From: Alphaproteobacteria bacterium
GTDB lineage: Bacteria; Pseudomonadota; Alphaproteobacteria; Paracaedibacterales; CAITNM01
Direction of reading: 5' to 3'
Assembly (NCBI GenBank): GCA_947478955.1
Contig: CANJXJ010000001.1
Location: 1-51,745 of the forward strand
DNA length: 51,745 bases
Shown: positions 321 to 42,623 of the stretch, piece by piece
How positions within the stretch are numbered: the stretch's first letter is position 1
How the letters are laid out: every line of letters begins with the position of its first letter
Notes under the pieces: model-generated
Told to the model about the DNA's origin: nothing
What the model saw: the letters and a program-made list of their open reading frames with translations, nothing else
Databases searched by the model: none
Made by a program: the position numbers and the translations under genes

Positions 321-755
321 TTAACCTTTATCCTGCATAGATTGCAGCAACCTTTTCATCCCGCGCTGCTTTGGTTTTTTTTTATCAGTGGGCGGCCTTG
401 TATTGCTGATTGAGGCCCCTATAACATTCCCCGCTGCATCGGTAACTTTAATATTTTTAATGTGGGCAATGTTCACGAATTTGTAATAAGTCCTGTAGCG
501 CTGGCCTTTTCGTGTATAAAATGTACGTTTTAGAGTGCCAGTGGGCGTTGTTACCTTTAAAAAAAATTTTGATTTGTCACAATTTTTTAGCTCAACAAAA
601 ATGTAAAATTGCTGATTTTTTATATCTTCCAAAGCAAGTTCATCAACAGGTTCATTATTCTGTATTTTGCTGGTTAAGCATAAACGCTCAAGGATCGGTG
701 CAGCTGAGGCTTCTGTTATAAAAAAACAAAACAGCAAGCTAAACAGTAAGCCCAT
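321..755 (-). CDS. Exported hypothetical protein, DUF2914-like
   Basis: Signal peptide ending ASA-A. The pattern CLTSKIQNNEPVD / FYIFVEL / RYRTYYK / IKVTDAAGNVIG resembles DUF2914 (by recall). Basic C-terminal tail. Confidence 0.5.
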   Translation of the reverse strand: MGLLFSLLFCFFITEASAAPILERLCLTSKIQNNEPVDELALEDIKNQQFYIFVELKNCDKSKFFLKVTTPTGTLKRTFYTRKGQRYRTYYKFVNIAHIKNIKVTDAAGNVIGASISNTRPPTDKKKPKQRGMKRLLQSMQDKG

Positions 756-830: not shown

Positions 831-1472
831 CTATGTGGCAGGATACTCAAGTAGTTTTTTTACTAATTCGTTAACGGTGTTAAACCGAGCAAGTAAGGGA
901 CCATCATAGGCATCATTACCTATAGCAATGGCTGCCATATTTAGGTTCTGGGCAAACATCCAGTCAGTGATGCTATCACCTATGTACACAGCTTCATGAG
1001 GTTGTAAGCCAAAATGTTTCAAGGTCATTAATCCCATATCTGGATGAGGCTTATCTTGGGGTGAATCTCCTGACCCAAGAATAAAATCATAGGGTATGTT
1101 AAGCCGTTTAACTTCTTCACGAAGTAATTCACATTTTTTGTTACTGATGATAGCGATCAAATACCCAGATTTTTTTAACGCTTGTAAGGAAGAATGTGTT
1201 CCTTCATACAATCTTACATCATCTTTATTTTCAAAGATTGTTTGATAAAAAATGCCTCGGGCTTCTTCCCACTGTTCGCCAAATAGCTTTGGGAATCCTT
1301 CTCGGGTAGAAAGCTGCGCTCTAATTTTTATTTCTTCTAGTGTTGCTTCTGGCAGTCCAAAATGTTTCAGCGCTGCATTAGAAGCTTTGAAAATAATTGG
1401 CCAAGTATCAACAAGCGTGTTATCCCAATCGAAGAATATGGCTTTAAATGTGTGGTCTCTTAAATTTTTCAT
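831..1472 (-). CDS. HAD-superfamily hydrolase (phosphoglycolate phosphatase-like)
   Basis: Motifs FDWDNTLVD, SNK, KPHP and YIGDSITD. Overlaps the secretin stop. Confidence 0.9.
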   Translation of the reverse strand: MKNLRDHTFKAIFFDWDNTLVDTWPIIFKASNAALKHFGLPEATLEEIKIRAQLSTREGFPKLFGEQWEEARGIFYQTIFENKDDVRLYEGTHSSLQALKKSGYLIAIISNKKCELLREEVKRLNIPYDFILGSGDSPQDKPHPDMGLMTLKHFGLQPHEAVYIGDSITDWMFAQNLNMAAIAIGNDAYDGPLLARFNTVNELVKKLLEYPAT

Positions 1473-3088
1473 TTTAAGGGCCGTGGATCAGTGGTGTATT
1501 CATCCATTAAACGCTGATCCGCTCCATCAATTGCGGCACCATTATCCATAATTGTTGCCTTTAAGACAATCACTAATTCAACAATTGTATCACCTTCAGC
1601 TAAGCTACCGGTCAAATCACGCAATAGGGGTACGCCATCTAACCCCGGCATACCTTGCTTATGCTCAGAAGAGCGAACCTCCATTAACCCACCAAGTATG
1701 GCCATTTCTTTATTATTTAGTCTTAATACCGAATCAATTTCCCGCACTTCAACAACCGGAATAAGTGATGGGGTAGGGGATTTCAGTTTGCTTGGATCAG
1801 TGTTAGATGCGTAGTAAGCAATATCAATAGCGGGATCTGAAACTGTCTGGGTCAGCCTTGAAATACTGGGTCGTAAGAATAAGATAATTTCCCCGGTTTG
1901 CGGATCAATCGATGGTTGCACCATCATAATTAAACCAATGGGCACCGTTTGAATATCGCTAGAAACAGTCGTGCTTTCGCGACTATTTTGTGAATTATAC
2001 ATTTTGTCGTAGTTAAGTTTGAAATAGACCTTATTTTGAGCAACTTTTAAAATAGCAGCTTGGTTATTCATCACGGTAAGGCGCGGGCTTGAAAGGGTTC
2101 GCACAAATCCAAATTCCTGCAATGCATTTGCGATGGCAGAAAACTTAGAGCCATCTGCTCCAAAGCTAACCATATTACCCTGGGAGGTGGTTGGATCCAA
2201 AAAGGCGCTTTTTTTGGCCATGTCACCAAATCGTGCTGCAATATTTAAATCACCTTTTGTGCCAACTGTTTGCCAATTGATGCCGCTGCGATATTCATCT
2301 TTTAAGGTGACTTCAATAATTTTAGCTTCTATTAGAACTTGGCTACAGGCGACATGGCGTAATCGCTCTAGGTATGTTTGCACTTGCTGATGTTGTTTGC
2401 GGTTTGCTCGTAGCGACACAAGCCCTGCCTGGCGATGAATCGAATAGGAACATTTTTCAGTCCCTGACTCAACAATTGACTTTAAGTTTTGCTCCAGTTC
2501 ATCCCAAAAATCATTTTTAGCGGTAGCCTTTAAAGCACTTTTAGAAACGTTATCACCTATGTTGCTTTTTGCAGGGCCAACACTTGAAAACACATCAGAC
2601 GCCACCGCTAGTTGGTTTTCACTTGTTCGAGATAAGTTTAAAAACTGAACGTTATAACTTTGAGAATAAGGGGTGTCCCGTTCTATGCGAATAGCTGTAT
2701 CGATAACGTCGTATCGTAAATTTGCCATTTCACACATCGACTTTATAACTTCAATAAATGGGCGATTTTTAGCGGTAAAAATAATTTTAGAATCAATTGT
2801 ATGATCTAGCTGTAAATCAACACCCGCTTGACGAGCCAGTTCCATAAATACATTTTTTAAGGAAATGCTCTCAGAGACTGAAATAGAAACAGGTTGATAC
2901 ATTATTTTAGGCAGTGCCGGCGCTTCTTTTTTTTGCAGAATTTTTTTAACTAAGGGAGGTGGTACAGAATCAGCTGGTTGCGCTAGTTCTTTTGCCTCTG
3001 CTTTGTCAACTTTTGGCATAAGCGGTTCATGATCAACTAATTCTCTGCAGCCAACTAATAGGAAGAATAATAAAAGAAATGTTGGCAA
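1469..3088 (-). CDS. Lipoprotein secretin, MshL-like (type II secretion / type IV pilus family)
   Basis: TTG start, lipobox LLVGC, STN-like N-terminal domain, and secretin motifs QVLIEAKIIEV, LSSPRLTVMNNQ and ILGGLM...PGLDGVPLL. Confidence 0.9.
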   Translation of the reverse strand: MPTFLLLFFLLVGCRELVDHEPLMPKVDKAEAKELAQPADSVPPPLVKKILQKKEAPALPKIMYQPVSISVSESISLKNVFMELARQAGVDLQLDHTIDSKIIFTAKNRPFIEVIKSMCEMANLRYDVIDTAIRIERDTPYSQSYNVQFLNLSRTSENQLAVASDVFSSVGPAKSNIGDNVSKSALKATAKNDFWDELEQNLKSIVESGTEKCSYSIHRQAGLVSLRANRKQHQQVQTYLERLRHVACSQVLIEAKIIEVTLKDEYRSGINWQTVGTKGDLNIAARFGDMAKKSAFLDPTTSQGNMVSFGADGSKFSAIANALQEFGFVRTLSSPRLTVMNNQAAILKVAQNKVYFKLNYDKMYNSQNSRESTTVSSDIQTVPIGLIMMVQPSIDPQTGEIILFLRPSISRLTQTVSDPAIDIAYYASNTDPSKLKSPTPSLIPVVEVREIDSVLRLNNKEMAILGGLMEVRSSEHKQGMPGLDGVPLLRDLTGSLAEGDTIVELVIVLKATIMDNGAAIDGADQRLMDEYTTDPRPLK

Positions 3089-4376: not shown

Positions 4377-5123
4377 ATGGCAGGACATTCCCAATTTAAA
4401 AATATTATGTACAGAAAAGGCGCGCAAGATGCTAAGCGTGCTAAAATGTTTGCAAAAATTGCACGAGAAATTATAGTTTCTGTAAAGTCAGGGGGGGCTG
4501 AAGCTTCTTCAAACCCAAGACTTCGTGCAGCCTTGGCTTCTGCCCGTGGCGCTAACATGCCGCGTGATAACATTGACAGAGCTATTAAAAAAGCTAGCGG
4601 TGGTGATGATTTAAGTAACTATGAAGAAGTGCGCTATGAAGGTTATTGCATAGCTGGAGTGGCGGTTATTGTTGAAGCGCTTACGGATAACCGCAACCGT
4701 ACGGCTTCGGAAGTGCGCTCTACTTTAAGCAAAAATGGTGGAAATTTAGGGGAAACCGGAAGCGTTGGTTTTTGTTTTGAGCGTTTAGGCATGCTGCATT
4801 TTGACGCCTCAAAATTTGGCTTTGATAAAGTGTTTGAAGCAGCGGTTAATGCAGGTGCTGATAACGTGGAAACGATTGATGACATTAATGAGGTTACTTG
4901 TCCCATGGAAGACTTTGCAGCGGTGCGTGATGCGCTAATTGGGACCTTAGGTGATCCAAGGGAAGCAAAAATTATGTGGAGGCCATTAAACACAATTGTA
5001 GTTAATGAAGATCAAGCTAAAACCCTATTTAAAACAATAGATACTCTAGAAGATAGTGACGACATACAAAACGTTTACACGAACGTTGAGATACCGGAAG
5101 ACATCTTAAAAAAATTGGAGTAG
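4377..5123 (+). CDS. yebC: YebC/PmpR family protein
   Basis: MAGHSQFKNI, YEGY and TDNRNRT motifs. SD GGAGG upstream. Confidence 0.97.
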   Translation: MAGHSQFKNIMYRKGAQDAKRAKMFAKIAREIIVSVKSGGAEASSNPRLRAALASARGANMPRDNIDRAIKKASGGDDLSNYEEVRYEGYCIAGVAVIVEALTDNRNRTASEVRSTLSKNGGNLGETGSVGFCFERLGMLHFDASKFGFDKVFEAAVNAGADNVETIDDINEVTCPMEDFAAVRDALIGTLGDPREAKIMWRPLNTIVVNEDQAKTLFKTIDTLEDSDDIQNVYTNVEIPEDILKKLE

Positions 5124-5300
5124 CCTTTTTTGTGGAAGTTTTCCCTTTAGAATTTTCCCTGGCAGGAGTTTGGGGTTTTTAAAGGCCTAATTATTGAGGT
5201 TTTTCATGAACTCTACGCTCTTTAGTTTTAAATTCTTAAAAAAATACTCGTTGTAACAGCCATTGGTATTTTGCCTAGTCAAATGGCATTGTTTTGTGGT
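5082..5300 (+). repeat. Direct repeat copy 1 (yebC 3' end + intergenic + signal-peptide coding region)
   Basis: CCGGAAGACATCTTAAAAAAATTrGAGTAGCCTTTTT ... CTAATTATTGAGGTTTTTCATGAA ... TGGCATTrTTTTGTGGT, shared with 5962..6153. Confidence 0.9.
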
Positions 5301-5879
5301 GGGCCTGTTGCTTTAGCTACTTTACCAGTTAATAGTGTTAATCTTCTTCCTCCACGTGTAAAAAGAAGCTCAAGTTGCCCAAGTTCTAATGAGTTCACTA
5401 TCACTACTGTAACCAAAAGACGTACACATTTTGAAGCTCCTGCTGCAGGATTGGCGGGGGGAAGTACACCGGTGCATAAACCAGCTGCAGCAGGAGAAGT
5501 TATCAAGCCTGCATTGGCACACTTAGGTTCAACAAAACTTCTCGGCGAACCTTCTCTGCCAGCGGCACCTGCAACAGTAGCGCAAGTTAGTGGTCAAATT
5601 TCCCCTGGGCCTTCTAGTGCTGCACTTGCTACTCTAGAATTAAGGGGCACTGTAATGTCAGATGCGTTGTGTGGAAAGCCAGCTCCAGCAGAAGTTAGGA
5701 TTCCTTTCGAACCTTCTAGTGCTTCTGAACGAAGAGCGCGAATAGCATACAGTTTAGCCGGTAATCCGTGGGCAGCTAAAATGGTACTTTCTCTCGCTGA
5801 GCACAAAGTGATAGAAGTAGTGCGTACTAGTGCTACAGGACCTTTTTCTAGCTCACCCTCATGCGTAGAGCTTGCCTAG
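5206..5879 (+). pseudogene. Secreted Pro/Ala/Ser-rich orphan, paralog 1; frameshifted at the A7 tract (pseudogene or phase-off allele)
   Basis: The ATG at 5206 after GAGG hits TAA after 16 codons. Adding one A at 5238..5244 fuses it to ORF 5271..5879, giving MNSTLFSFKFLKKILVVTAIGILPSQMALFCG..., which matches the leader of paralog 2. Confidence 0.7.
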
Positions 5880-5890
5880 CTTCGTTTAAC

Positions 5891-5938
5891 AAAATTAGCT
5901 ACCTGCATTGACAGAAACTAATTGTCGGTAGCTATTTT
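5891..5938 (+). terminator. Hairpin after paralog 1, possible terminator
   Basis: AAAATTAGCTACC...GACA/TGTC...GGTAGCTATTTT inverted repeat just after the stop. Confidence 0.45.
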
Positions 5939-5961
5939 GACCTAGCTAAATTTTTATCCGT

Positions 5962-6153
5962 AACGTAAAAAATTCCGGAAGACATCTTAAAAAAATTAGA
6001 GTAGCCTTTTTGGTGGAGGTTGCTTCTTTAAAATTTTTCCTGCTGAATGTGGGGTTTTTAGAGGTCTAATTATTGAGGTTTTTCATGAATTCTAAGTTAC
6101 TAAAAAAAACATTAGTAATTGTTGCCCTTAGCCAATTGGCATTATTTTGTGGT
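5962..6153 (+). repeat. Direct repeat copy 2, including a relic of the last ~12 codons of yebC
   Basis: ATTCCGGAAGACATCTTAAAAAAATTAGAGTAG encodes IPEDILKKLE*, identical to the YebC C-terminus. Confidence 0.9.
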
Positions 6154-6598
6154 GATGATTTTTTTGATAGTGCGTCGGTACGATCACCTATCTTGACTAA
6201 TGGTACATCGTCTATAGTGCAACCATCTCTAATTGCCATGGATACTAATCCAGATTCAGATGTGGCGCCTGCAGCTGCCTTACCAAGAGCACTCAAGCCT
6301 TTGCAAATTAGGCGAAGCGTTTCAGAGGGCGGCTTGCCCTCGACAGACAAGCCAAAAATATTAACTCTGGATTTATCCAGTGGAGCGAGAGAAGCGGCAA
6401 TAGAGATGTGTATCTCCTACATCGACAGCACTTTTGGCTATAAGAAACATATTATTAGCGCAGTATCCAGGGGTAGCTTTTTATATGCTTGCACCACCAG
6501 TTCAAAGACATATTTTAGATGTGTTTCACACCCTTTCCGGTGCAACAAGTGCAGCTCGTTTTGGGGGAATAATAGATAAGTGTAAAGAGATCGCATAG
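6085..6598 (+). pseudogene. Secreted orphan, paralog 2; probable frameshift near 6402-6440
   Basis: ATG at 6085 after GAGG gives MNSKLLKKTLVIVALSQLALFCG. The in-frame stop is at 6579, but the +1 frame 6404..6598 encodes a C-terminus resembling paralog 1 (LAQYPGVAFYML ... CKEIA* vs LAGNPWAAKMVL ... CVELA*). Confidence 0.6.
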
Positions 6599-6609
6599 AC
6601 TGTGCTGCT

Positions 6610-7758
6610 TTACGGTGTCCTTTTATAAACAGGTACAAGCACGACTAATAAAATCAGCCACCAGCTTTGCCAAATACTAATGCCCGTTGCCGCCACGCAA
6701 AGGGCACTTCCCCAAAAAGCTATTGTATAGCTGGTAGATTTTGCGTAATAGTTATGCCAATAAACAATCCACATTATGCAGGCAAGCGCCACCCCAATAG
6801 CTCCCAGCTCAAGCCATAACTGCAACATAAAATTATGAGGATGCAAGCACATTTCAGGGGAGCTTAAGACTATCTTTTCAGACCCGTTTAAAATGATGAT
6901 GTCGTCGCCGTTAACGACAAGAAAACGATAACGAGAGCTTCCAAAGCCAAACCCAGTCCAAAAACGTTCAAAAAGTTGTTTCGTGACTGAATGCCAAATG
7001 AAGAGTCGGTGGGTGTAGCTAGGATCAAGTGTAGCTGACCACTGTATGTATTGCTCAGGAGATAGGATTCGAAAAATAAAGGGCAATATTCCCCAAACAA
7101 CTGGCATCCCATAGATAAACATGACCCTTAAAAACCTAGGTAGCGCTTTATGCATAATTAAAGTTCCTGATCCTAAAAGGATACCTAGTGCTGCAGCGTC
7201 ACTTGAACAACGTCGCATAATCAAAAAGAGTAATATGAGAATGCCGGCTTGTACCCATTTTTTGAAATGGTGCAGACTCATCCAAATGGCTAGACCGCAA
7301 GCTACGCAGCCGTGAATTAATGCTTGAGATACTTGCTGATCAATTACAGTGTGCAGTTGCCAACCATATTCAAGGCTAATTGCAAAAATCCCTAGACACA
7401 TTGCGAGTAATAAACCAGCTGTTGATACGGTATGTTGAAACTGTTGGCGTAGATGAGGGTTAAAATTATTATATCGGTTCAACCACAACCAGCCACCTAG
7501 CATCACTGCCGTAACCTTGGCGTACATATATAAGGCTTTAGGTGGGTCCACTGCCCAGAGTGTGCTAATGGCACACCAGGCGATGAATAGTATCAGTAGG
7601 GGATTTGTTATGTTATATAAATCTTGTTTCCTAAATTGGAAAAGGCAGACCCCAGCCAAACCTACAAAAGGATAGATGTTTCCATGGGGCAGCGGTAAGC
7701 ATAAAAAAACTACAAGAAAAACCAGGATTTTATAAGGCCAATAATTTTGAGAATGCAT
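6610..7758 (-). CDS. O-antigen ligase (WaaL/Wzy_C) family membrane protein
   Basis: Multi-pass hydrophobic protein with RLFIW, GFGFG and HPHNFMLQLWLELGAIG motifs. Confidence 0.85.
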   Translation of the reverse strand: MHSQNYWPYKILVFLVVFLCLPLPHGNIYPFVGLAGVCLFQFRKQDLYNITNPLLILFIAWCAISTLWAVDPPKALYMYAKVTAVMLGGWLWLNRYNNFNPHLRQQFQHTVSTAGLLLAMCLGIFAISLEYGWQLHTVIDQQVSQALIHGCVACGLAIWMSLHHFKKWVQAGILILLFLIMRRCSSDAAALGILLGSGTLIMHKALPRFLRVMFIYGMPVVWGILPFIFRILSPEQYIQWSATLDPSYTHRLFIWHSVTKQLFERFWTGFGFGSSRYRFLVVNGDDIIILNGSEKIVLSSPEMCLHPHNFMLQLWLELGAIGVALACIMWIVYWHNYYAKSTSYTIAFWGSALCVAATGISIWQSWWLILLVVLVPVYKRTP

Positions 7759-10308: not shown

Positions 10309-11121
10309 ATGGTTATGAACGTAGGAGTAAACGGTTCTATCCTTGGCAAGGCTCAGCTTGCTAAGAGTATTGATATAAATGCAATCCTCGAATCGTTAGT
10401 ACAAAACAGTTCTTACTCACACAAAATAGCAACTGATAAAGCTACTCAAATCACAAATACTACAAAAATCACTGCATTCTCAAATTTAAAAACTGACGTT
10501 ATAGCTGTAAAGACCTCGCTAAATGCCCTAGCTGATGCCGTTACTACGCAAGAAAGGAAGGATAAGCTTAATGCCTTTGTAAATGCTTATAACAAGGTTG
10601 TGGGAGATATTAAAACTGGAGATGCATATAATGTAGAAACCAGATTGGCAGGGCCTTTAATGGGGAGTAGGGAAGTAAGAATCCTTCACGATGCACTTAG
10701 CAGAGCTAAAAACACTTCAATAGATGCTAACTCCTTAACCAATATGGGTGTTTCAGTTGGGGCGAATGGGTTGCTTACTGTTGACTCAAATAAAGTGGAC
10801 GATGCTCTGACTAATCATCTTTCTAGCTTTACCACTTTGTTGGGGGAGGCTCGAGTAGGAAATGCGGCCGGTACAGGTCTTGTTGGTGCTTTTAATACAG
10901 TTGTTAATAGTGCAACAAACGTAGCATCGGGTTTTTTGACAAGTCATATAGAAGGGTTAGATAGACAGAACGTACTCCTAGGTACCGATATTAGCAACCA
11001 ACAACGTCATCTAGACCAGTATACAAAACAGCAACTCACAAAACTCGTTTATATGGAAAATAGCGTTTCTAAATCTAATTTCGATCAACAGTTGTTGGAG
11101 CACATGTTTTCAAAAATATAA
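10309..11121 (+). CDS. fliD: Short flagellar filament cap (FliD/HAP2)-like protein
   Basis: IDINAILESLV (FliD N-terminus), FVNAYNKVV, GPLMG, LTNMGVS...NGLLTVDSNKVDDAL, and a C-terminal coiled coil. Confidence 0.75.
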   Translation: MVMNVGVNGSILGKAQLAKSIDINAILESLVQNSSYSHKIATDKATQITNTTKITAFSNLKTDVIAVKTSLNALADAVTTQERKDKLNAFVNAYNKVVGDIKTGDAYNVETRLAGPLMGSREVRILHDALSRAKNTSIDANSLTNMGVSVGANGLLTVDSNKVDDALTNHLSSFTTLLGEARVGNAAGTGLVGAFNTVVNSATNVASGFLTSHIEGLDRQNVLLGTDISNQQRHLDQYTKQQLTKLVYMENSVSKSNFDQQLLEHMFSKI

Positions 11122-25264: not shown

Positions 25265-25852
25265 ATGAAGAAAGTTATTTTTTTAAGCATGCTAATGGTA
25301 TTTTCTTTTTTGGAGGCTAGCACTCTTGTTGCTCACGCTTTATCTGATAACCCTTGGGGGAGAAAGGCTAACCCTCGCACTTTCCCTCCTTTGCTTGAAA
25401 ATGTTGATGCTTCTGATAGAAAACCCGCTTGGTGGGGTTTTCCCATTCTACCAACCAGTTGCCCCCAAAATGTTGCTGGTCTTTTTGATAGAATAGGAAC
25501 AAGGGTAAGTTCTTCAGCCATATTAGACAGGGTGAGTTCTGCATCGACTAATGCCTTAGATAAAACGCACCAAAATAAAAAGCTTGCCCAGGCCCTTTTT
25601 GGGGTAGAGCTTCCAAAGCGTGAGTCAAAGCTCTCAAAGCCTGTGGACATAAAAGTTAGGGCATCCCAACACACCACACCATATAGAATTCAAACAGAAG
25701 AAAGGCGCAACAGAATAGCTGCAGGTAAACACTTAAGAGGTTATCAACATGCTAGCGTTTCATTTCCCTTTAGCAAAAGAACTGGCCGCCCAACCCCACT
25801 GTCTAAAAAATATAATAATCAACCGAGATATAAACCAACAGGGCGTAACTAA
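25265..25852 (+). CDS. Secreted hypothetical protein with a very basic C-terminal half
   Basis: Signal peptide MKKVIFLSMLMVFSFLEA-S. No recognisable domain. K/R-rich tail. Confidence 0.65.
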   Translation: MKKVIFLSMLMVFSFLEASTLVAHALSDNPWGRKANPRTFPPLLENVDASDRKPAWWGFPILPTSCPQNVAGLFDRIGTRVSSSAILDRVSSASTNALDKTHQNKKLAQALFGVELPKRESKLSKPVDIKVRASQHTTPYRIQTEERRNRIAAGKHLRGYQHASVSFPFSKRTGRPTPLSKKYNNQPRYKPTGRN

Positions 25853-26583: not shown

Positions 26584-28659
26584 CTACGTCCCCTCATAAA
26601 AAGAAACACACCAAGGCCTAGTTCCAAAGTAAGTTTTCAAAAAATAAAACCGCAAAGGGTTTTTGTACACAGCCACGCCACCTTCGTATTGAATAATATT
26701 TCTATCGATGACTTTTGGAATGCGAAATCCGTGTTTCTTTAATGTACGCTCATATCCAAAAGTAATCACGGCATCAACCTTGGCGCCTTCATTCATAATG
26801 TCGTGTAAGTATTCTATGCCCTCTTTAGGGGAAGTAATTAAGACCAGGTTAGGGGATTGGAAATGGTGGTATTCCTGTTCCCATTTTTGCTGCTGACTAG
26901 CCCCCCATTCTTGCCCCCAAATATCAATTGTAAAAGCATTGCGTTTAGCATTATCAGAAACATATACTACGCCTTCATGAAGGAAGGCCATGATATCATT
27001 TTGCTGGCTGATATAAGCAAAGGGAAGTTCAAAGCTTCGCCACAAGATAATCCCCAAAGCTATGGGAATCATTCCCAGCCACCGCCATGCTTTTTTCCAT
27101 AAGCATACCCACAACATACCAAAACTGAATATAACTAAGGCATGGGAAGGTACAGCCTTAACTTGTATGGCAGCGCCAGGCAACAACGCTATTTTTTGGG
27201 CAATCAGGCACAATAAATTCAAGCTTTTTTCCCATAACCAAAAAAGAATATCGCTTCCTCCGAACGCTAGGAAAAGCACGCTAAAAAGCCCTAAAGGCAT
27301 GACAAAAAATCCTACCAAGGGAATTGCTAATAAATTTCCCAAAATTGCTTGAGCGGTAAATCGCTGAAAAAATGCCATGCTATAGGGCGTTGTTGCAAGG
27401 GATGCAATAAGGGTGGTCATGAAAATTCCAAAAACTCCCCATAAAACCTTTTTAAGGCCTAAAAAATTGCTAGAATGTTGAAATACTTTTTCTTGTAAAA
27501 CGTGCCAGGCTGATTCGTAAAATGCTAGTAATCCTAGCACTGCTGCAAATGACAGCTGAAAGCTTGCTGACAATAAACTTTGGGGAGAAAACATCAGTAC
27601 TACAATTGCTGCTAAGGCGAGGCTTCGCATCGAAAAAGCCGTGCGATCTAAACATACCGCCAGCATCGCCAGGGTGATCATAATAAATGACCGTTGAACT
27701 GGAATACCAAAATTGGCGAGGCCCATGTAAAACATGCTGGCAATTACTGCCAAACAAGCAGCAACTTTTTTAGGGGAAAATGCCATAGAAAATGCGGGCC
27801 ATAAGCACATTAAACGGCGCAGCAATAAAAATACAAGACCGGCTACCAAGCTTAAATGCAGTCCTGAAATTGCTAGCACATGGGCAAGCCCAGCATCAGC
27901 AAATGACTGGCGTAATTTATGGGAAATATAGCTACGATCGCCCGTCACCAGTGCAGATGCTATCGCGCCGTAAGGTTCTTTTAAATGGGATAATAATTTT
28001 TTAGTAAGGGTATGACGATACTGGGAAAATGGCTTAGCCGCAGCTCGTTGGTGATTTAAGATTTCACCCATGCGTGCTGTGCCACCAATGCCTTGAAGGT
28101 ATGCTGCTCGTCGTGCAAAATATCCGTGTAAACTGCTTGGCATTGGAATAGGATAAATGCTTGCATCAACTTTTAGCTGGTCATGAATTTGCAATTCTTG
28201 AGCTAACTCTCCTGAAATATTTAAACGAAGCTTTGCAGAATAATTTGTATCGTTAATTTTTACCCGGTCTAAAATAATCCTGTAGGTGCCATCATCTTTG
28301 TAAGGGTGATTTTCAATAGACTCTATGCGTCCAGAAATATCTGCATTTTCTTGAGTGGTCTTAAACATCTGCGTGGTATTAAAGTGTACGCGTACCCCTA
28401 TCAGGCAAAAACCAACACTAAACCCTGCAATGATACAGAAACCTAGGCCTGTGCTGGGGTTTTTGTATATCCATAAAGCTGCAATTATCCCCAGAAGAAA
28501 TATAAAAATGTAAACCCAAGCGTTAGGTTCCTGATCCAAATTAAAGTAGGTGCCAATGCCAAAAATTAATCCAACTGGAAACCAGTGAACCCACCTTGAG
28601 TACTCCGCAAAATAAGCGGTTAACAATTTTAATTTTAAATTTTCTATGAGTGCGTACAA
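26584..28659 (-). CDS. comEC: ComEC/Rec2 competence DNA channel
   Basis: GLAHVLAISGLH, VQRSFIM, SFQLSFAAV and GNLLAIP. TTG start. Confidence 0.93.
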   Translation of the reverse strand: MYALIENLKLKLLTAYFAEYSRWVHWFPVGLIFGIGTYFNLDQEPNAWVYIFIFLLGIIAALWIYKNPSTGLGFCIIAGFSVGFCLIGVRVHFNTTQMFKTTQENADISGRIESIENHPYKDDGTYRIILDRVKINDTNYSAKLRLNISGELAQELQIHDQLKVDASIYPIPMPSSLHGYFARRAAYLQGIGGTARMGEILNHQRAAAKPFSQYRHTLTKKLLSHLKEPYGAIASALVTGDRSYISHKLRQSFADAGLAHVLAISGLHLSLVAGLVFLLLRRLMCLWPAFSMAFSPKKVAACLAVIASMFYMGLANFGIPVQRSFIMITLAMLAVCLDRTAFSMRSLALAAIVVLMFSPQSLLSASFQLSFAAVLGLLAFYESAWHVLQEKVFQHSSNFLGLKKVLWGVFGIFMTTLIASLATTPYSMAFFQRFTAQAILGNLLAIPLVGFFVMPLGLFSVLFLAFGGSDILFWLWEKSLNLLCLIAQKIALLPGAAIQVKAVPSHALVIFSFGMLWVCLWKKAWRWLGMIPIALGIILWRSFELPFAYISQQNDIMAFLHEGVVYVSDNAKRNAFTIDIWGQEWGASQQQKWEQEYHHFQSPNLVLITSPKEGIEYLHDIMNEGAKVDAVITFGYERTLKKHGFRIPKVIDRNIIQYEGGVAVYKNPLRFYFLKTYFGTRPWCVSFYEGT

Positions 28660-29237: not shown

Positions 29238-30023
29238 TTAAATTATTCCGTTTTCACTCAAAAAAGTGGCGTACCCAGAACCAAGCAAGGGTGAAAAGAA
29301 GCTTGGTGAACGACAAACAGCTGCATTAATGGGAGAGCATAAAAGATCCTGAAAAATTTCACGCGCTGGTACAGTTAGTAAAATATGGCGAGTAATAACA
29401 GTTCTTCCGCCATAGCCTACAATGCTGAAGTAATCTTCCATACGGGTATGATCTAGTCCAGCAATTGCAAAATTGTTGGGTGATGCAACTCCATCATGCA
29501 AATGCACTGAGCTTGTAGTATTCAAAAGTCCTGTGCCATCTCCGCGGCATACAAGTGCTGTAACACCTGCGTAATTTCCTCCCATAGCAGGGAAAAAATC
29601 TGAAAACCCATGAGAACGCAACAGTATTTGTGTTCCATTCCATGGATTATCTTGAACGTTAAGGTATAGCTGGCATGTAGTGCCTGCTGCATCAAGTCGT
29701 GCCCTAATAAATTCTGGAAGGATCTCCCGGACATTGTCAGGATTATACCTTGCAACAAGGGGGTGAGAAGCATAAGAAGGAGCGTCATCCCCCAGCACAT
29801 CAGTTGGGTTGTATGGATGACAGTTAACCGCCAAAGGTGTGCTTACCCCAGGATATAAAGTTCCATGGCACCCTACGTTTGTACGGCGGTTGCCCATAAT
29901 GGTGTCAATAAGGGGAAGTTCAGAAAAATATGCCTCATCAGCAGCAGGAACAAGGGCTGCTGAAAAAGCTGAATTTGTGTAAATTGAAGTAATAATTAAA
30001 ATAACTACATTTAAAATTTTCAT
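29238..30023 (-). CDS. Secreted hypothetical protein, lysine-free mature chain
   Basis: Signal peptide ending AFSA. 261-aa ORF with SD-like AGGT upstream. The only Lys is residue 2. Confidence 0.8.
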   Translation of the reverse strand: MKILNVVILIITSIYTNSAFSAALVPAADEAYFSELPLIDTIMGNRRTNVGCHGTLYPGVSTPLAVNCHPYNPTDVLGDDAPSYASHPLVARYNPDNVREILPEFIRARLDAAGTTCQLYLNVQDNPWNGTQILLRSHGFSDFFPAMGGNYAGVTALVCRGDGTGLLNTTSSVHLHDGVASPNNFAIAGLDHTRMEDYFSIVGYGGRTVITRHILLTVPAREIFQDLLCSPINAAVCRSPSFFSPLLGSGYATFLSENGII

Positions 30024-33930: not shown

Positions 33931-34473
33931 ATGACAACAACACGACTTGAAGATTTAAAGGCCTATTTGCCCCATTCCCTGCACAATGAAAAAGAGCTGT
34001 TTCAATCGGTTAATAAAGAACTTTCAAACAAAGGCTATATTTTAACTAAGCTTGATCAGATGGCAGCGTGGGCCCAGAGTGGTTCTTTATGGCCAATGAC
34101 GTTTGGGCTAGCCTGTTGTGCTGTTGAAATGATGCACAGTGCAGCAAGCCGTTATGACCTTGATCGCTTTGGTCTTGTGTTTAGGCCAAGCCCCAGACAA
34201 TCAGATGTAATGATCGTAGCAGGGACCCTTACAAATAAAATGGCACCAGCCTTGCGTAGGGTTTATGACCAAATGCCAGAACCCCGTTGGGTAATCTCCA
34301 TGGGAAGCTGTGCTAATGGCGGTGGCTACTACCATTATTCCTATTCCGTAACCCGCGGCTGTGACCGTATTGTTCCGGTCGATGTTTATGTTCCCGGCTG
34401 CCCACCCACGGCCGAAGCATTGGTGTATGGCATTATGCTGTTGCAGCAAAAAATTACCGGCAAAATTGGGTAG
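33931..34473 (+). CDS. nuoB: NADH-quinone oxidoreductase subunit B
   Basis: [16 protein letters not shown] and VPGCPP. Confidence 0.98.
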
Positions 34474-34482
34474 AGCTTTCCT

Positions 34483-34718
34483 TAGTTTTCCTCTTGCTTG
34501 ATCGTCCCGCTCCAGTTTCCCTACGGCTTGACCGTAGGGTCCATATCTATAATTTCTGGATCCTGGGATCAAGCGAGAATGACACGGAGTAGAAGTAGAA
34601 TGAGAGAAGGCCAGAAAGCCAGAAAGAAGGTCATCATTGTGAGGGCTGCAAGCCCGTGGCAAGCCAGTGAGTAACATCATTAAGGTAATACTTGTCATTC
34701 CCGCGGAGGCGGGAAGCC
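34483..34718. repeat. REP-like cluster 4 between convergent nuoB and lptB
   Basis: B partial at 34483, B at 34513-34543, A/B hybrid at 34558-34583 (-), third type at 34633-34667, and A at 34694-34718. Confidence 0.85.
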
Positions 34719-34741
34719 AGTAGAAAAAGATGCCGACGTCA

Positions 34742-35464
34742 TTAAAGCGAAAAATTCTCGCCCAAATACACACGCCTGACATCAGGGTGATTAATAATAT
34801 GTGCTGGGTCACCTTCGGTAAGCACCTTGCCTTCTGCAATAATGTACGCTCTGTCTACAACGTCTAGGGTTTCACGCACATTATGGTCAGTAATCAAAAT
34901 GCCGATATTATGGCTTTTCAGGCGCATAATAATGTCTTTAACATCTTGCACCGCAATCGGGTCAATACCAGCTAGTGGTTCATCTAAGAATAAAAAATCT
35001 GGCTTAATCGCAAGACATCGGGCAATTTCAACCCGTCGCCGTTCACCGCCTGAAAGAGCAACCGAAGGAGCTTCTCTTAAATGGGTAATCCCAAATTCAT
35101 CGAGTAGTTCTTCTAGGCGTTCTTGTTGGTGGTCAGGGTCAGATTCCACACGTTCAAGGGCTGCGCGAATATTATCCTCCACATTTAGCCCGCGAAAAAT
35201 TGAGGCATCTTGTGGCAAGTAGCTAATCCCCATGCGCGCTCGCTTGTACATAGGCGCATTGGTAATATCATCACCATCCAAAAAGATACGGCCTGAATCC
35301 GCCATGATTAATCCTGTAATGATCGAAAAACATGTTGTCTTTCCAGCACCATTTGGACCAAGCAAACCAACGGCTTCGCCTGAACTCACGCTCAGGTCAA
35401 TACCCTTTAGCACCATGCGCTTTTGAAAGGTCTTCGTTAATTTTTGAGCTTTAAGGGTTCTTAT
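34742..35464 (-). CDS. lptB: LPS export ABC ATPase LptB, probable ATA start at 35464
   Basis: GPNGAGKTT, YLPQDASIFR, LSGGERRRVEIAR, ITDHNVRE and VYLGENF. The frame is open 16 codons upstream of the ATG at 35416. Confidence 0.95.
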   Translation of the reverse strand: MRTLKAQKLTKTFQKRMVLKGIDLSVSSGEAVGLLGPNGAGKTTCFSIITGLIMADSGRIFLDGDDITNAPMYKRARMGISYLPQDASIFRGLNVEDNIRAALERVESDPDHQQERLEELLDEFGITHLREAPSVALSGGERRRVEIARCLAIKPDFLFLDEPLAGIDPIAVQDVKDIIMRLKSHNIGILITDHNVRETLDVVDRAYIIAEGKVLTEGDPAHIINHPDVRRVYLGENFSL

Positions 35465-35985
35465 TGTTTATCTTCCTTCTGTTTTGGATACACAACGCAG
35501 GTCACTTGATCTTCTTGACTTGCTTGCATTGTAAAAACATGTGTCCCAATGTCAAGGTTAGCTTCCCTACCATGGACTTCATTTTTCTCTTGAATAAGGT
35601 GTACATCATCTCCTGTGCACACAGCAACGTTTGTATCGAAATGATGAATACACTTCGTAGCGTATAGCTTAGTCTCGCCATATTCAATTTCAACACTGCC
35701 TTCAGCTATAGCTTCTGTTAAGTTCCCTTTATCATCAAATTCCGCATGCAGCTCATTAGATTTTAAAGTCACAAGAGAATCCTTAACCTTATACGATAAT
35801 CTTGCATTACCTGAGGCGTCAGCATGTTTGTGTGAGGTATCATAGCGCATGTTATCAGCTTTGATTTGGATATCATTCGCAGGGCTTTTTGCCGGCTCTT
35901 CACAAACACACACGTTTATGGAAAGGGCCATGGTTGTCGTCAATGTAACACTAATAAGACTTCGCATATTCACAAAACTCATCAC
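35461..35985 (-). CDS. lptA: LptA/OstA family periplasmic protein
   Basis: Signal peptide, IQIKADNM, ASGNA and IAEGSV; overlaps lptB. Confidence 0.8.
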   Translation of the reverse strand: MMSFVNMRSLISVTLTTTMALSINVCVCEEPAKSPANDIQIKADNMRYDTSHKHADASGNARLSYKVKDSLVTLKSNELHAEFDDKGNLTEAIAEGSVEIEYGETKLYATKCIHHFDTNVAVCTGDDVHLIQEKNEVHGREANLDIGTHVFTMQASQEDQVTCVVYPKQKEDKQ

Positions 35986-41111: not shown

Positions 41112-42623
41112 GTGAATCGTAAAGTTGTGCTGTGTATCCTTGATGGCTGGGGAATAGAACCAAACGACATGTTTAATGGCATTAAAGCTGCTAAGCATTG
41201 GCCAGACATTTTGCAAAAATATCCCCATACTCAATTACAAGCTTCCGATCACTATGTAGGCCTTCCCGATGGGCAGATGGGCAATAGTGAAGTGGGTCAC
41301 ATGACCATAGGCCTTGGTCGAGTGCTTCTCCAAGACTTGCCAAAAATAGACCAAGCATTTTCCAGCGCGATTATTAAAAATAACGAAAAAATTCTAAAAG
41401 CTATCGAGCAGCTTCAGCGTACTAAAAAGCCCTGTCATCTTATGGGGTTGTTGTCTTCAGGCGGGGTGCATTCCCATATGAATCACATGATTGAGGCGGC
41501 AAAATTATTGGCTGATGCTGAAATACCTGTCTATGTGCACGGATTTTTAGATGGGCGTGATACGCCCCCTAAAAGTGCCGCGGGTTATGTGGATACATTT
41601 TTAAAAGCAATCAGCAATTATCCAAATATTCATCTGGCTTCTTTAGGAGGGCGCTACTTTGCCATGGACCGTGATAACCGATGGGATAGGATTCAGCTTG
41701 CTTATAAAGCAATCGTTCAAGCAGATGTACCTAAATTTTCCAATGCTGCCCAGGCTATTGAAAGCTCATATAGTAATAATATTACTGACGAGTTTATTCT
41801 CCCCTCTATTCATGAGGGCTACCCTGGAATGCATGATGGTGACGGGCTTTGGATGATAAATTTCAGGTCAGATCGCGTTCGGCAACTTTTGCGAAGCCTT
41901 TTGGTGCAAGATTTCTCTATGTTTAACCGAGAAAAAATCATTCAGTTTGGCCCCACCTTAGCAATGAATGAATATGCTGATGACCTTACTCCGTTGATTC
42001 CCTCAATCTTTATAAAAGACGCGGTTGACAAGAGCTTGGGAGAAATACTTTCAGCCCAAGGGCTAAAACAGTTAAGGATAGCAGAGACTGAAAAATATGC
42101 CCATGTTACTTTTTTTCTAAATGGTGGTCGAGAAACTTCTTTTCAGGGGGAAGAAAGGGTAATGATCCCATCTCCTCAAGTTGCCACGTATGATTTGCAA
42201 CCGGAAATGTCGGCAGAGGAAGTGACAAAAACCGTAACCCAAGCTATGGAACGTAATGACCTTAGCCTTATCGTTGTGAACTATGCGAATACTGATATGG
42301 TAGGTCATACAGGCGTTATAGAAGCTATTCATAAAGCCGTTGCATGTGTTGACCTTTGTGTAAAAAATTTAGAGCAAAAAGCTATAGAAAATAATTGGAC
42401 CTTACTAATAACTGCAGACCATGGGAATGCGGAATGTATGCGAGAAGGTGATGCACTAACTCCTCATACCGCCCATACCTGCAACCCAGTGCCCTTTGTC
42501 TTAGTGAATGGTGATGCCAAAAATTTAAAGGCTGGCACTCTTGCTGATATTTCCCCAACAATTTTAAACATCATGGGAATCGATCAACCAAAAGAAATGA
42601 CAGGAAAATCATTGCTGTGTTGA
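41112..42623 (+). CDS. gpmI: 2,3-BPG-independent phosphoglycerate mutase
   Basis: ILDGWG, GQMGNSEVGH, AETEKYAHVTFF, DMVGHTG and TADHGNAE. Confidence 0.98.
   Translation: MNRKVVLCILDGWGIEPNDMFNGIKAAKHWPDILQKYPHTQLQASDHYVGLPDGQMGNSEVGHMTIGLGRVLLQDLPKIDQAFSSAIIKNNEKILKAIEQLQRTKKPCHLMGLLSSGGVHSHMNHMIEAAKLLADAEIPVYVHGFLDGRDTPPKSAAGYVDTFLKAISNYPNIHLASLGGRYFAMDRDNRWDRIQLAYKAIVQADVPKFSNAAQAIESSYSNNITDEFILPSIHEGYPGMHDGDGLWMINFRSDRVRQLLRSLLVQDFSMFNREKIIQFGPTLAMNEYADDLTPLIPSIFIKDAVDKSLGEILSAQGLKQLRIAETEKYAHVTFFLNGGRETSFQGEERVMIPSPQVATYDLQPEMSAEEVTKTVTQAMERNDLSLIVVNYANTDMVGHTGVIEAIHKAVACVDLCVKNLEQKAIENNWTLLITADHGNAECMREGDALTPHTAHTCNPVPFVLVNGDAKNLKAGTLADISPTILNIMGIDQPKEMTGKSLLC

What the first reader, a model, noticed from the sequence alone, without database searches (positions are those of the whole stretch)
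5082..6598. Tandem cassette array behind yebC: each unit is yebC 3' end + intergenic leader + signal peptide + variable cargo
Seen: about 200 bp (5082-5300) recurs at 5962-6153, including a relic still encoding IPEDILKKLE* of YebC, the GAGG-ATG region and a leader ending SQxALFCG. After that the two ORFs diverge in a low-complexity middle, then resemble each other again at the C-terminus. Inference: an expandable array of secreted, fast-evolving paralogs anchored on a core gene end. It could arise by unequal crossover or by integration that regenerates the yebC terminus, and would suit effector or antigen diversification. This is the best candidate for an undescribed system in the window.
Basis: partly seen in the sequence, partly recalled or inferred. 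Interest (0 to 1): 0.75.

Follow-up and report, generated by a model that had tools for sequence, protein, structure and literature searches.

The report
Two-gene tandem behind yebC, not array
Behind the core gene yebC lie two neighbouring orphan genes for exported proteins that share a copied start region but not their bodies, and both are frame-broken; this looks like a small lineage-specific duplication, not a new cassette system.

Summary
The repeat is real. Window 5091-5301 recurs at 5972-6154. It holds the last 33 nt of yebC (31/33 alike), an 80-nt leader (66/80) and a signal-peptide coding stretch (57/65 plus indels). The genome has exactly two copies. Independent contigs from four studies bridge the tandem junction, so it is not an assembly artefact.

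The "expandable cassette array" reading is not supported:
- There is no third unit.
- No contig shows an excision or empty-site joint.
- No recombinase lies nearby.
- Nine of 13 sister species have yebC abutting the convergent Wzy_C gene, one has a single unrelated-looking signal-peptide ORF there, and three have another gene order.

The mature parts show no detectable similarity as protein or DNA. The claimed C-terminal resemblance is no better than shuffles. The cargos are ORFans.

Both units are frame-broken here. Unit 1 has an A7 tract inside its signal peptide. Unit 2 has an extra base near 6405, and codon usage shows its real tail is the 6404-6598 frame. Other populations carry different breaks in unit 2.

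Best reading: an older lineage-specific tandem pair of a fast-evolving secreted ORFan, whose 5' export module was homogenised later, now decaying or possibly switching on and off. Interest is low to moderate.

The parts
4377..5123 (+). yebC (YebC/PmpR family regulator, 248 aa). Its last 33 nt (5091-5123) are the first part of repeat copy 1.
   Evidence: NCBIfam NF001030, E=1.2e-99; ORF list.
5091..5301 (+). Shared 5' module, copy 1: yebC end (5091-5123), leader (5124-5205), signal-peptide coding part (5206-5300).
5157..5181 (+). Terminator-like hairpin plus T run inside leader 1 (probably the yebC terminator). GAGG lies at 5196-5199.
   Evidence: Consensus scan only. The leader fold is not better than shuffles (z=-0.08).
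5206..5256 (+). Start of unit 1. The ATG frame reads MNSTLFSFKFLKKYSL-stop. The A7 tract at 5238-5244 breaks the frame. A -1 shift there joins to ILVVTAIGILPSQMALFCGG..., which completes a signal peptide.
   Evidence: A7 with no gap in contigs of X1, X3, X6 and X8. Database members of the ORF1 cluster all start after the break.
5232..5879 (+). Unit 1 long open frame (listed as ORF 5271-5879, 202 aa). The mature part is rich in Ala, Ser and Pro and holds the motif KRRTHFE.
   Evidence: Codon-frame score 0.249 against 0.24+-0.06 for genome genes. No Pfam or PHROGs family. Atlas model pLDDT 0.37.
5891..5938 (+). Hairpin in the spacer between the units (12-bp stem with a bulge, long loop, ends in TTTT). 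Likely end of the unit 1 transcript.
   Evidence: Fold of 5877-5975: z=-3.34, 0 of 200 shuffles fold as well.
5972..6154 (+). Shared 5' module, copy 2: non-functional yebC relic (5972-6004), leader (6005-6084, hairpin plus T run at 6038-6059, GAGG at 6075-6078), signal-peptide coding part (6085-6153) with the A8 tract at 6102-6109.
   Evidence: One contig of run X6 lacks one A of this tract (depth 3.2).
6085..6579 (+). Unit 2 ORF as it stands in this genome (164 aa from the ATG). It holds the motif IRRSVSE. Its tail after about 6405 is in a frame that does not look coding.
   Evidence: Codon-frame score: N part 0.191, tail 6406-6576 -0.19.
6404..6598 (+). The probable original C-terminal frame of unit 2. 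It is reached if one base near 6403-6406 is absent.
   Evidence: Codon-frame score 0.15. A contig of run X8 lacks one base at 6405 (depth 2.3).
6610..7758 (-). Convergent Wzy_C (O-antigen ligase-like) membrane protein gene. It is the right border of the 1.49-kb insert.
   Evidence: Pfam PF04932, E=1.3e-10. In 9 sister species it abuts yebC.

Best explanation
This is a small, lineage-specific pair of tandem genes, not a cassette system. A gene for a fast-evolving, mostly disordered exported ORFan sits in the gap between the convergent stop codons of yebC and a Wzy_C gene. That gene is present in two lineages of the genus and missing from one clade.

In the lineage of this genome the gene exists twice, head to tail. 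The duplicated segment started 33 nt inside yebC. So each copy carries a yebC-end relic, a terminator-like hairpin, GAGG, the ATG and the signal peptide.

The two 5' modules differ at 16 of 113 aligned non-coding bases (14%), while the mature parts are unalignable. The module copies therefore share a much younger ancestor than the cargos. The most likely cause is an older tandem duplication followed by homogenisation of the 5' module (gene conversion), or a later copying of the module alone. This step is inferred.

In the sampled populations the pair is being inactivated. Unit 1 is broken at an A7 tract in its signal peptide in all four runs. Unit 2 is broken by an extra base near 6405 (in G000, X1 and X3) or by loss of one A of its A8 tract (X6). 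It is unbroken only in X8, which covers both break sites on low-depth contigs.

Shown: the anatomy, the copy number, the distribution among species, the frame breaks, the coding-like composition and the lack of relatives. Inferred: the order of events, export through Sec, and decay as opposed to switching.
For: - Two copies only. The junction is bridged in runs of four studies with no joints.
- Of 13 same-genus genomes, 9 have yebC followed within about 40 nt by the convergent Wzy_C gene. One (G013) has a single 469-aa signal-peptide ORF there and no yebC relic. Three have another downstream gene or a contig end.
- rpoB tree of 13 rows: the 8 'empty' genomes that have rpoB form one clade (SH-aLRT 98). 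G000 and G013 lie outside it, so a single loss or a single gain suffices.
- The unit 2 signal peptide resembles that of G013 (31 of 5000 shuffles reach the score). The leaders do not (195 and 547 of 2000 shuffles), so leaders decay at genus scale.
- Module identity is 31/33, 66/80 and 57/65, against cargo similarity at shuffle level.
- Both cargos score as coding: 0.249 and 0.191, against 0.24+-0.06 for genome genes.
- Frame breaks. All three members of the ORF1 database cluster start after the A7 break.
- No recombinase nearer than about 42.5 kb among all 45 ORFs of 110 aa or more.
Against: - A simple 'duplicate then diverge' history cannot give 14% divergence in a non-coding relic and leader next to unalignable cargo. 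A second event (conversion or module copying) has to be assumed and was not observed.
- The 3' ends of the two units are not alike. Unit 1 has a 92-nt spacer with a hairpin, while unit 2 ends about 11 nt before the Wzy_C stop.
- Homology of the two cargos rests only on one short motif chosen after the fact: RR[ST]x[SF]E. It has 2 hits in 1746 ORFs of the genome, both of them here, and it is also present in the G013 protein.
- Three different frame breaks in two genes across four near-identical populations could reflect switching or selection for loss, not neutral decay.
- The variants in X6 and X8 rest on single contigs at depth 3.2 and 2.3.
Confidence: 0.6

Rival explanations
1. The pair is a contingency (phase-variable) pair. 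Two exported or surface proteins share one expression and export module. Each is switched on or off by slipped-strand changes in the A7/A8 tract that encodes the Lys-Lys of the signal peptide n-region, so the cell shows one, the other or neither.
For: - Both units have the tract at the same place. Unit 1 is A7 (out of frame) and unit 2 is A8 (in frame).
- One population (X6) has unit 2 with one A fewer.
- The cargo of unit 1 is still an intact 215-codon frame with normal codon usage despite the break.
- The architecture (conserved 5' UTR and signal peptide, divergent mature part) is that of known variable surface-protein families (PMC2268961, passages read).
- A homopolymer next to a signal peptide switches NanH3 in Gardnerella (bioRxiv 10.1101/2020.09.16.300947, passages read).
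Against: - Unit 1 is A7 in all four runs and in all database members, so no 'on' allele of unit 1 was seen.
- The one tract variant is a single contig at depth 3.2.
- The second break of unit 2 (near 6405) is not in a repeat tract.
- A or T runs of 7 (1108) and 8 (323) are commonplace in this genome.
- The G013 gene has only A5 there.
- Contigs cannot show minority lengths.
Confidence: 0.2
2. A foreign allele was inserted. A DNA fragment from a related strain that carried a different cargo at the same yebC-Wzy_C site was taken up. It was integrated using the shared 5' module as homology (Campbell-like, or homology-facilitated illegitimate recombination). This left both alleles in tandem, with the donor's yebC end as the relic.
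For: - There is a sharp switch from 82-94% identity to no similarity exactly at the signal-peptide cleavage region.
- The module is younger than the cargos.
- A ComEC-family competence gene lies in the window at 26587-28659.
- The site holds different cargo in G013.
Against: - No strain or metagenome contig with only one of the two cargos, or with another cargo behind this module, was found. The leader pattern gave 0 hits in genome contigs and in metagenome contigs, and the protein searches gave only self hits.
- The relic is closest to this genome's own yebC.
- The model needs an illegitimate join.
Confidence: 0.12
3. One reading: a cassette array built by site-specific integration that regenerates the yebC terminus (integron-like or island-like), able to gain and lose units.
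For: - A direct repeat starts inside the 3' end of a core gene.
- Unit number behind yebC is 0, 1 or 2 among species.
Against: - There is no integrase or recombinase next to the locus. The nearest is a 301-aa XerC/D-like gene at 49102-50004.
- There are only two units.
- No joints appear in four runs.
- The repeat is a 211-nt promoter-proximal and coding module, with no inverted-repeat recombination site at the unit ends. The leaders do not fold better than shuffles.
- The G013 unit has no relic repeat.
Confidence: 0.05
4. The tandem structure, or the frame breaks, are an assembly or sequencing artefact.
For: - The genome is a 69-contig metagenome assembly.
- Homopolymers are error-prone.
Against: - Independent contigs from four studies reproduce the junction.
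- Two of them (X1, X3) match with 0 differences over 1965 and 1406 nt, including the A7 tract.
Confidence: 0.02

Closest known systems
Mycoplasma variable surface lipoprotein families (Vsp of M. bovis, Vpma of M. agalactiae, Vlp of M. hyorhinis)
   Same: Clustered genes whose 5' untranslated region and signal-peptide coding region are conserved while the mature parts differ. Homopolymer tracts are involved in on/off control in some of them (PMC2268961, Introduction passages read via 'find').
   Different: - Those are families of several to many lipoprotein genes with a lipobox, internal tandem repeats and, for Vsp and Vpma, a dedicated Xer-like recombinase.
- Here there are two genes, no canonical lipobox (ALF-C, judged by eye from a recalled consensus), no tandem repeats and no adjacent recombinase.
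- The tract lies in the coding region, not in the promoter.
Borrelia lipoproteins with an upstream homology box and OspE/F-like leader peptides (Elp/Erp) (recalled, no call)
   Same: Nearly identical upstream DNA plus leader peptide is fused to unrelated mature proteins. The similarity stops at the leader's end, and the pattern is explained by recombination.
   Different: Those are plasmid-borne multi-copy families in a spirochaete. Here there is a chromosomal two-gene tandem wedged between core genes, with a relic of the upstream core gene.
Contingency genes switched by repeats in or next to the signal-peptide coding region (Gardnerella NanH3 poly-C; Neisseria Opa CTCTT repeats, the latter recalled)
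   Same: A repeat tract close to the signal peptide makes the annotated protein lose its signal peptide in some genomes (bioRxiv 10.1101/2020.09.16.300947, passages read). Unit 1 here is annotated in exactly that way.
   Different: Within-population length variation is demonstrated there. Here only one low-depth variant was seen, and the tracts are short (7-8 nt) and ordinary for this genome.
Integron cassette arrays, and genomic islands that integrate into a gene's 3' end and regenerate it (general knowledge, recalled)
   Same: A direct repeat begins inside the 3' end of a core gene, and the content behind that gene varies among relatives.
   Different: There is no integrase, no attC-like or att-like short core, no flanking of a mobile element, only two units, and no excision product seen.

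Membership tests
Integron-like cassette array | Adjacent integrase gene (tyrosine recombinase) with an attI site | tested here: not met
   All 45 ORFs of 110 aa or more in the window were scanned. The only recombinase is a XerC/D-like gene at 49102-50004, about 42.5 kb away.
Integron-like cassette array | Each cassette ends in a structured recombination site (attC, imperfect inverted repeats) | tested here: not met
   The unit boundary at 5972 lies in plain yebC-end sequence. The leaders fold no better than shuffles (z=-0.08 and -0.43). The spacer hairpin at 5891-5938 occurs only once.
Integron-like cassette array | Variable number and order of cassettes among close strains; free circular cassettes | tested here: inconclusive
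   Four runs from four studies all show the same two-unit state with no joints. These are contigs, which hide rare forms.
Island integrated at a gene's 3' end | Short direct repeats (attL/attR) flank a mobile element that encodes its integrase | tested here: not met
   The repeat is 211 nt and includes the RBS and signal peptide. The 881-nt unit encodes only the ORFan.
Variable surface-protein family with a shared 5' UTR and signal peptide (Vsp/Vpma/Vlp-like) | Several genes with a conserved 5' UTR and signal peptide and divergent mature part | tested here: met
   Met for two genes only. There is no third member in the genome.
Variable surface-protein family with a shared 5' UTR and signal peptide (Vsp/Vpma/Vlp-like) | Lipoprotein lipobox and internal tandem repeats in the mature part | tested here: not met
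   The peptide ends ..ALFCG, with F at -1, which does not fit the recalled consensus L-[AS]-[GA]-C (by eye). Tandem Repeats Finder gave 0 rows for 4900-6800.
Variable surface-protein family with a shared 5' UTR and signal peptide (Vsp/Vpma/Vlp-like) | Reversible high-frequency switching (recombinase or slipped-strand tract) | tested here: inconclusive
   There is one tract-length variant in one low-depth contig. Unit 1 is fixed at A7. Raw reads were not available.
Sec-type signal peptide | Basic n-region, hydrophobic core of 10-17 residues, small residues before the cleavage site | tested here: inconclusive
   By eye, unit 2 reads MNSKLLKK / TLVIVALSQLALF / CG. Unit 1 shows the same only after a -1 shift. 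No signal-peptide predictor was on hand, and export is not shown.
Any known protein family for the cargos | Significant match to a curated profile or to any database protein | tested here: not met
   - Pfam and PHROGs gave none.
- The word-based search of 5.77 billion proteins gave only self hits.
- HMMER over 1.84 billion representatives gave the self hit and one artefact, P0003, a 4622-aa translation of a simple repeat with 11 weak stretches.

The most novel reading that the evidence does not exclude
The pair is a minimal antigen-switch locus in a small-genome freshwater alphaproteobacterium. Its best named YebC relative is the amoeba symbiont Ca. Paracaedibacter symbiosus at 67% identity. 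In this reading, two disordered exported proteins with one shared promoter, RBS and signal-peptide module are toggled by the A7/A8 tract. Unit 1 might also be read through at its A AAA AAA heptamer by -1 slippage. Each protein carries an RR[ST]x[SF]E motif that looks like a site for a basophilic eukaryotic kinase, so these would be host-facing factors under diversifying or loss-favouring selection.
Probability: 0.12. Interest if true: 0.55.

Novelty: new member of a known kind. Interest (0 to 1): 0.25.

Why it matters
If the ordinary reading holds, the value is mainly corrective. A striking-looking 'core-gene relic plus leader plus signal peptide' repeat turns out to be a two-copy, species-specific duplication of an ORFan that is being inactivated. 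It is not a new mobile or diversity-generating system.

It is still a clean small example of two things:
- An expression and export module (here starting inside the upstream gene) is kept or copied as a block while the exported part changes beyond recognition.
- ORFan exported proteins turn over (gain, duplication, frame breaks, loss) between near relatives in small-genome, probably host-associated alphaproteobacteria.

If the switching reading holds, it would be a rare case of contingency-type variation outside classical pathogens.

Tried and rejected
- Pattern scans with the 24-nt conserved leader core gave 0 hits in genome contigs and 0 in metagenome contigs. So no extra strains could be compared that way. 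Records near the window's own genome may be left out of these collections.
- A search for more genes with this signal peptide in the own genome (tblastn with short queries and a six-frame regex) found nothing beyond the two units.
- Internal repeats in the G013 469-aa protein: a periodic motif of about 41 aa seen by eye scored 20-33 in 14-aa windows, inside the range of shuffles (25-37).
- An HMM built from those seven segments did not pick up ORF1 or ORF2 among 8699 six-frame segments of the genome. The best hit was unrelated, at E=0.19. The middle of that long list was cut from view. So cargo homology through a shared repeat is not supported.
- ESM Atlas gave no feature hits. The ORF1 model has pLDDT 0.37. 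The G013 model has pLDDT 0.54 with a weak HEAT-like structural row (TM 0.27 by query, 0.52 by row). This is a lead only.
- The HMMER hit P0003 (E=1.1e-14) was rejected as an artefact of a 4622-aa repetitive translation.
- Leader RNA structure is no better than shuffles.
- The sigma-70 scan found 2 promoter-like sites against 3.2 expected. The one at 5086-5115 lacks its first hexamer in unit 2. So the promoter of unit 2 is not located.
- Downstream of yebC in 18 loci of more distant relatives (3 same-genus genomes without the Wzy_C neighbour, G007, G008 and G012, and 15 from other families of the order) there is no signal-peptide ORF. Several have a RuvC-like gene (named from recall) or other genes.
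- The search of earlier findings returned nothing.
- RNA runs X19 and X20 held small shares of the stretch (0.08 and 0.06).
Full report
WHAT IS THERE

Between the stop of yebC (4377-5123, YebC/PmpR family) and the stop of a convergent Wzy_C-family gene (6610-7758 on the minus strand) lies 1.49 kb with two same-strand ORFs. A direct repeat joins them. Window 5091-5301 recurs at 5972-6154.

By segment:
- The last 33 nt of yebC including the stop are 31/33 identical. The second copy is a functionless relic that still reads IPEDILKKLE-stop.
- The leader from stop to ATG is 66/80 identical, with 2 gap columns.
- The signal-peptide coding part is 57/65 identical, with 34 gap columns.

The leader similarity is far above chance: 0 of 2000 shuffles reach the score. 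Each leader holds a terminator-like hairpin with a T run (5157-5175 and 6038-6054; consensus scan only) and GAGG 6 nt before the ATG. The repeat does not extend further into yebC (315 of 2000 shuffles reach the score). It stops right after ..ALFCG, at the end of the leader peptide.

The rest of the two units shows no similarity:
- BLASTP finds only the signal-peptide end.
- Smith-Waterman scores of the mature parts are matched by 1384/2000 and 760/2000 shuffles.
- Cargo DNA is matched by 144/300 shuffles.

HOW MANY, AND IS IT REAL

The own genome is a freshwater metagenome assembly (1.64 Mb, 69 contigs, 96.6% complete). It has only these two copies. Searches with short peptides and a six-frame regex found no third gene with this leader peptide.

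The stretch occurs in runs of 12 studies. I laid four runs from four studies:
- A 1965-nt contig of X1, possibly the source sample, covers 4721-6685 with 0 differences.
- A contig of X3 covers 4790-6195 with 0 differences.
- Contigs of X6 (5902-6133) and X8 (5911-6061) bridge the 5971/5972 junction.

No joint (excision, empty site, other copy number) was reported. Contigs drop rare variants, so this shows that the two-unit form is present. It does not show that other forms are absent.

READING FRAMES

Unit 1 starts at ATG 5206. It runs MNSTLFSFKFLKKYSL-stop, because its A tract (5238-5244) has 7 A. The long frame (5232-5879) continues ..ILVVTAIGILPSQMALFCGG.., so one more A, or a -1 shift, would give a complete signal peptide. 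In the ATG frame the tract is an A AAA AAA heptamer. That is the shape of a -1 slippery site (recalled knowledge). It follows automatically from loss of one A and is no evidence of design.

Unit 2 starts at ATG 6085, has 8 A (6102-6109) and is in frame to 6579.

A codon-frame score trained on 641 long ORFs of the genome (mean 0.24, sd 0.06; off-frames about -0.79) gave:

| Stretch | Score |
|---|---|
| Unit 1 long frame | 0.249 |
| Unit 2, N-terminal part | 0.191 |
| Unit 2 tail as it stands (6406-6576) | -0.19 |
| Alternative frame 6404-6595 | 0.15 |

So both cargos look like real coding sequence. Unit 2 carries a one-base insertion near 6405 in this genome.

The populations agree with that. 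X8 lacks one base at 6405 (one contig, depth 2.3), which fuses the two frames. X1 and X3 match the window. X6 lacks one A of the unit 2 tract (one contig, depth 3.2). Unit 1 is A7 in all four runs. All three database members of its protein cluster start after the break or are cut.

A or T runs of 7 (1108) and 8 (323) are common in this genome.

RELATIVES

Of 13 same-genus genomes:
- Nine (G001-G006, G009-G011) have yebC followed within about 40 nt by the convergent Wzy_C gene. That is an empty site.
- G013 has one 469-aa ORF with a signal-peptide-like start in exactly this gap. It has no yebC relic repeat.
- G007 and G008 have a different downstream gene. In G012 the contig ends 130 nt after yebC.

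An rpoB DNA tree was built from 13 rows. G009 was left out because it has no rpoB match, and G007 because only a 135-aa fragment was found. The tree puts the eight empty genomes in one clade (SH-aLRT 98). G000 and G013 lie outside it in an unresolved fork, and G008 and G012 lie further out. This is a one-gene quick tree with a midpoint root. One loss, or one gain, is enough to explain the distribution.

The G013 signal peptide resembles that of unit 2 (31 of 5000 shuffles). Its leader does not resemble either leader (195 and 547 of 2000). Its mature part gives only weak pairwise hits (E=0.009 and 0.31). In 18 loci of more distant relatives (the same-genus G007, G008 and G012 plus 15 from other families of the order), no signal-peptide ORF follows yebC.

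WHAT THE CARGOS ARE

- They match no Pfam or PHROGs family.
- The word-based search of 5.77 billion proteins returns only the window's own proteins.
- HMMER over 1.84 billion representatives returns the self hit and P0003. P0003 is a 4622-aa translation of a simple repeat whose 11 weak stretches add up, so it is an artefact.
- The G013 protein has no relative in the 61 other genomes of the order.
- Atlas models are poor: pLDDT 0.37 for ORF1 and 0.54 for G013, with a weak HEAT-like row for G013.
- ORF1 is rich in Ala, Ser and Pro.

The only shared feature I found is the motif RR[ST]x[SF]E. It has 2 hits in 1746 ORFs (519,924 aa) of the genome, and they are exactly ORF1 and ORF2. G013 has RRSHSE. 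The motif was defined after looking, so it is a hint of distant common descent. Its likeness to a basophilic-kinase site is recalled and untested.

HOW IT MOST LIKELY AROSE (inference)

The non-coding relic plus leader differ at 16 of 113 aligned bases (14%). The cargos are at shuffle level. Leaders are not conserved at genus scale, since G013 is unalignable. So the two module copies share an ancestor much younger than the split of the cargos. Plain duplication followed by divergence does not explain this.

The simplest history has three steps:
- An older tandem duplication of an approximately 880-nt segment that began 33 nt inside yebC.
- Near-neutral, very fast change of the exported parts, as seen between G000 and G013.
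- Later homogenisation of the 5' module by gene conversion, or a later copy of the module alone placed in front of the second gene.

The hairpin in the spacer (5891-5938, z=-3.3) suggests that unit 1 ends its own transcript. Unit 2 would then need a promoter within the relic or leader. That could explain why the relic is kept, but no convincing promoter was found.

A take-up of a foreign allele by recombination at the shared module is a live alternative. A ComEC-family gene is in the window, but no donor-like allele was found.

Site-specific cassette integration is unlikely. No integrase lies nearby; the only one in the window is a XerC/D-like gene at 49102-50004. There is no att-like or attC-like structure, no tandem arrays, only two units, and no joints.

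WHAT IT DOES (inference)

The products are probably Sec-exported, largely disordered proteins of a small-genome alphaproteobacterium. FzlA is in the window. The best named YebC relative is Ca. Paracaedibacter symbiosus at 67% identity, which is a lead and not a placement.

In the sampled populations both genes are broken, at three different places across four near-identical populations. I read this as inactivation in progress (probability 0.6). A contingency-type on/off pair is the main rival (0.2).

COMPARISON WITH KNOWN SYSTEMS

The architecture of a conserved 5' UTR and signal peptide with a divergent mature part is known from three places:
- Mycoplasma Vsp, Vpma and Vlp families (PMC2268961, Introduction passages read).
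- Borrelia 'upstream homology box' lipoproteins (recalled).
- Homopolymers beside signal peptides that switch genes, such as Gardnerella nanH3, and mislead annotation in the way seen for unit 1 (bioRxiv 10.1101/2020.09.16.300947, passages read).

This locus shares the layout. It lacks the family size, the lipobox, the internal repeats, the recombinase and demonstrated switching. I did not search the literature for this particular locus beyond, and I make no claim that it is unpublished.

VERDICT

The repeat, the relic and the leader peptide are real. The C-terminal likeness is not, and there is no array.
The genes are fast-evolving exported paralog-like genes behind yebC. They are not an expandable or integrative system.
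- Novelty: a new member of a known kind.
- Interest: 0.25.

Noticed in passing
L047:1193-2602 (G013): A single 469-aa ORFan sits in the same yebC/Wzy_C gap. It has a signal-peptide-like start, an acidic Ser/Thr/Pro-rich first half with two short DNA repeats about 95 nt apart, the motif RRSHSE, and a helical-looking second half with a motif of about 41-aa period seen by eye (not significant). The Atlas gives a weak HEAT-like structural row.
   Followed up: partly
window 1472-3088 (-): A 539-aa secretin. It is closest to the MSHA-pilus MshL model (E=4.5e-60, below the curated cut-off) and also matches GspD and PilQ models. It is a possible export route in this small genome.
   Followed up: no
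window 10309-11118 (+): A 270-aa ORF matches only the C-terminal part of flagellar cap FliD models (E about 1e-11, far below the cut-offs). It is either a short FliD-like protein or a remnant.
   Followed up: no
window 324-755 (-), 25265-25849 (+), 29241-30023 (-), 34204-34839 (-), 48001-49002 (-): Five further ORFs of 144-334 aa have no NCBIfam or Pfam match. The window holds several ORFans besides the two studied. Two more ORFs, 35464-35985 (-) and 42617-43519 (+), also gave no Pfam match but were not run against NCBIfam.
   Followed up: no
window 49102-50004 (+): A 301-aa tyrosine recombinase with an N-terminal SAM-like domain (XerC/D-like). It is the only recombinase in the window, about 42.5 kb from the locus.
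   Followed up: partly
window 6656-6732, run X8: One X8 contig matches with 8 differences. It then runs on into sequence like the Wzy_C gene of the 'empty-site' sister species, by eye. So a second species of the genus seems to live in the same sample.
   Followed up: no
P0003 (database protein, 4622 aa): A 'protein' made of near-identical units of about 60-100 aa, evidently a translated DNA satellite. It reached E=1.1e-14 against a low-complexity query by summing 11 weak stretches, which is a trap for automated homology calls.
   Followed up: yes
L021, L022 (G007, G008), just after yebC: In the outlying species of the genus, a 126-aa ORF (MNHTERLKN...) follows yebC on the same strand, in place of the convergent Wzy_C gene. 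The gene order at this site has changed within the genus.
   Followed up: no
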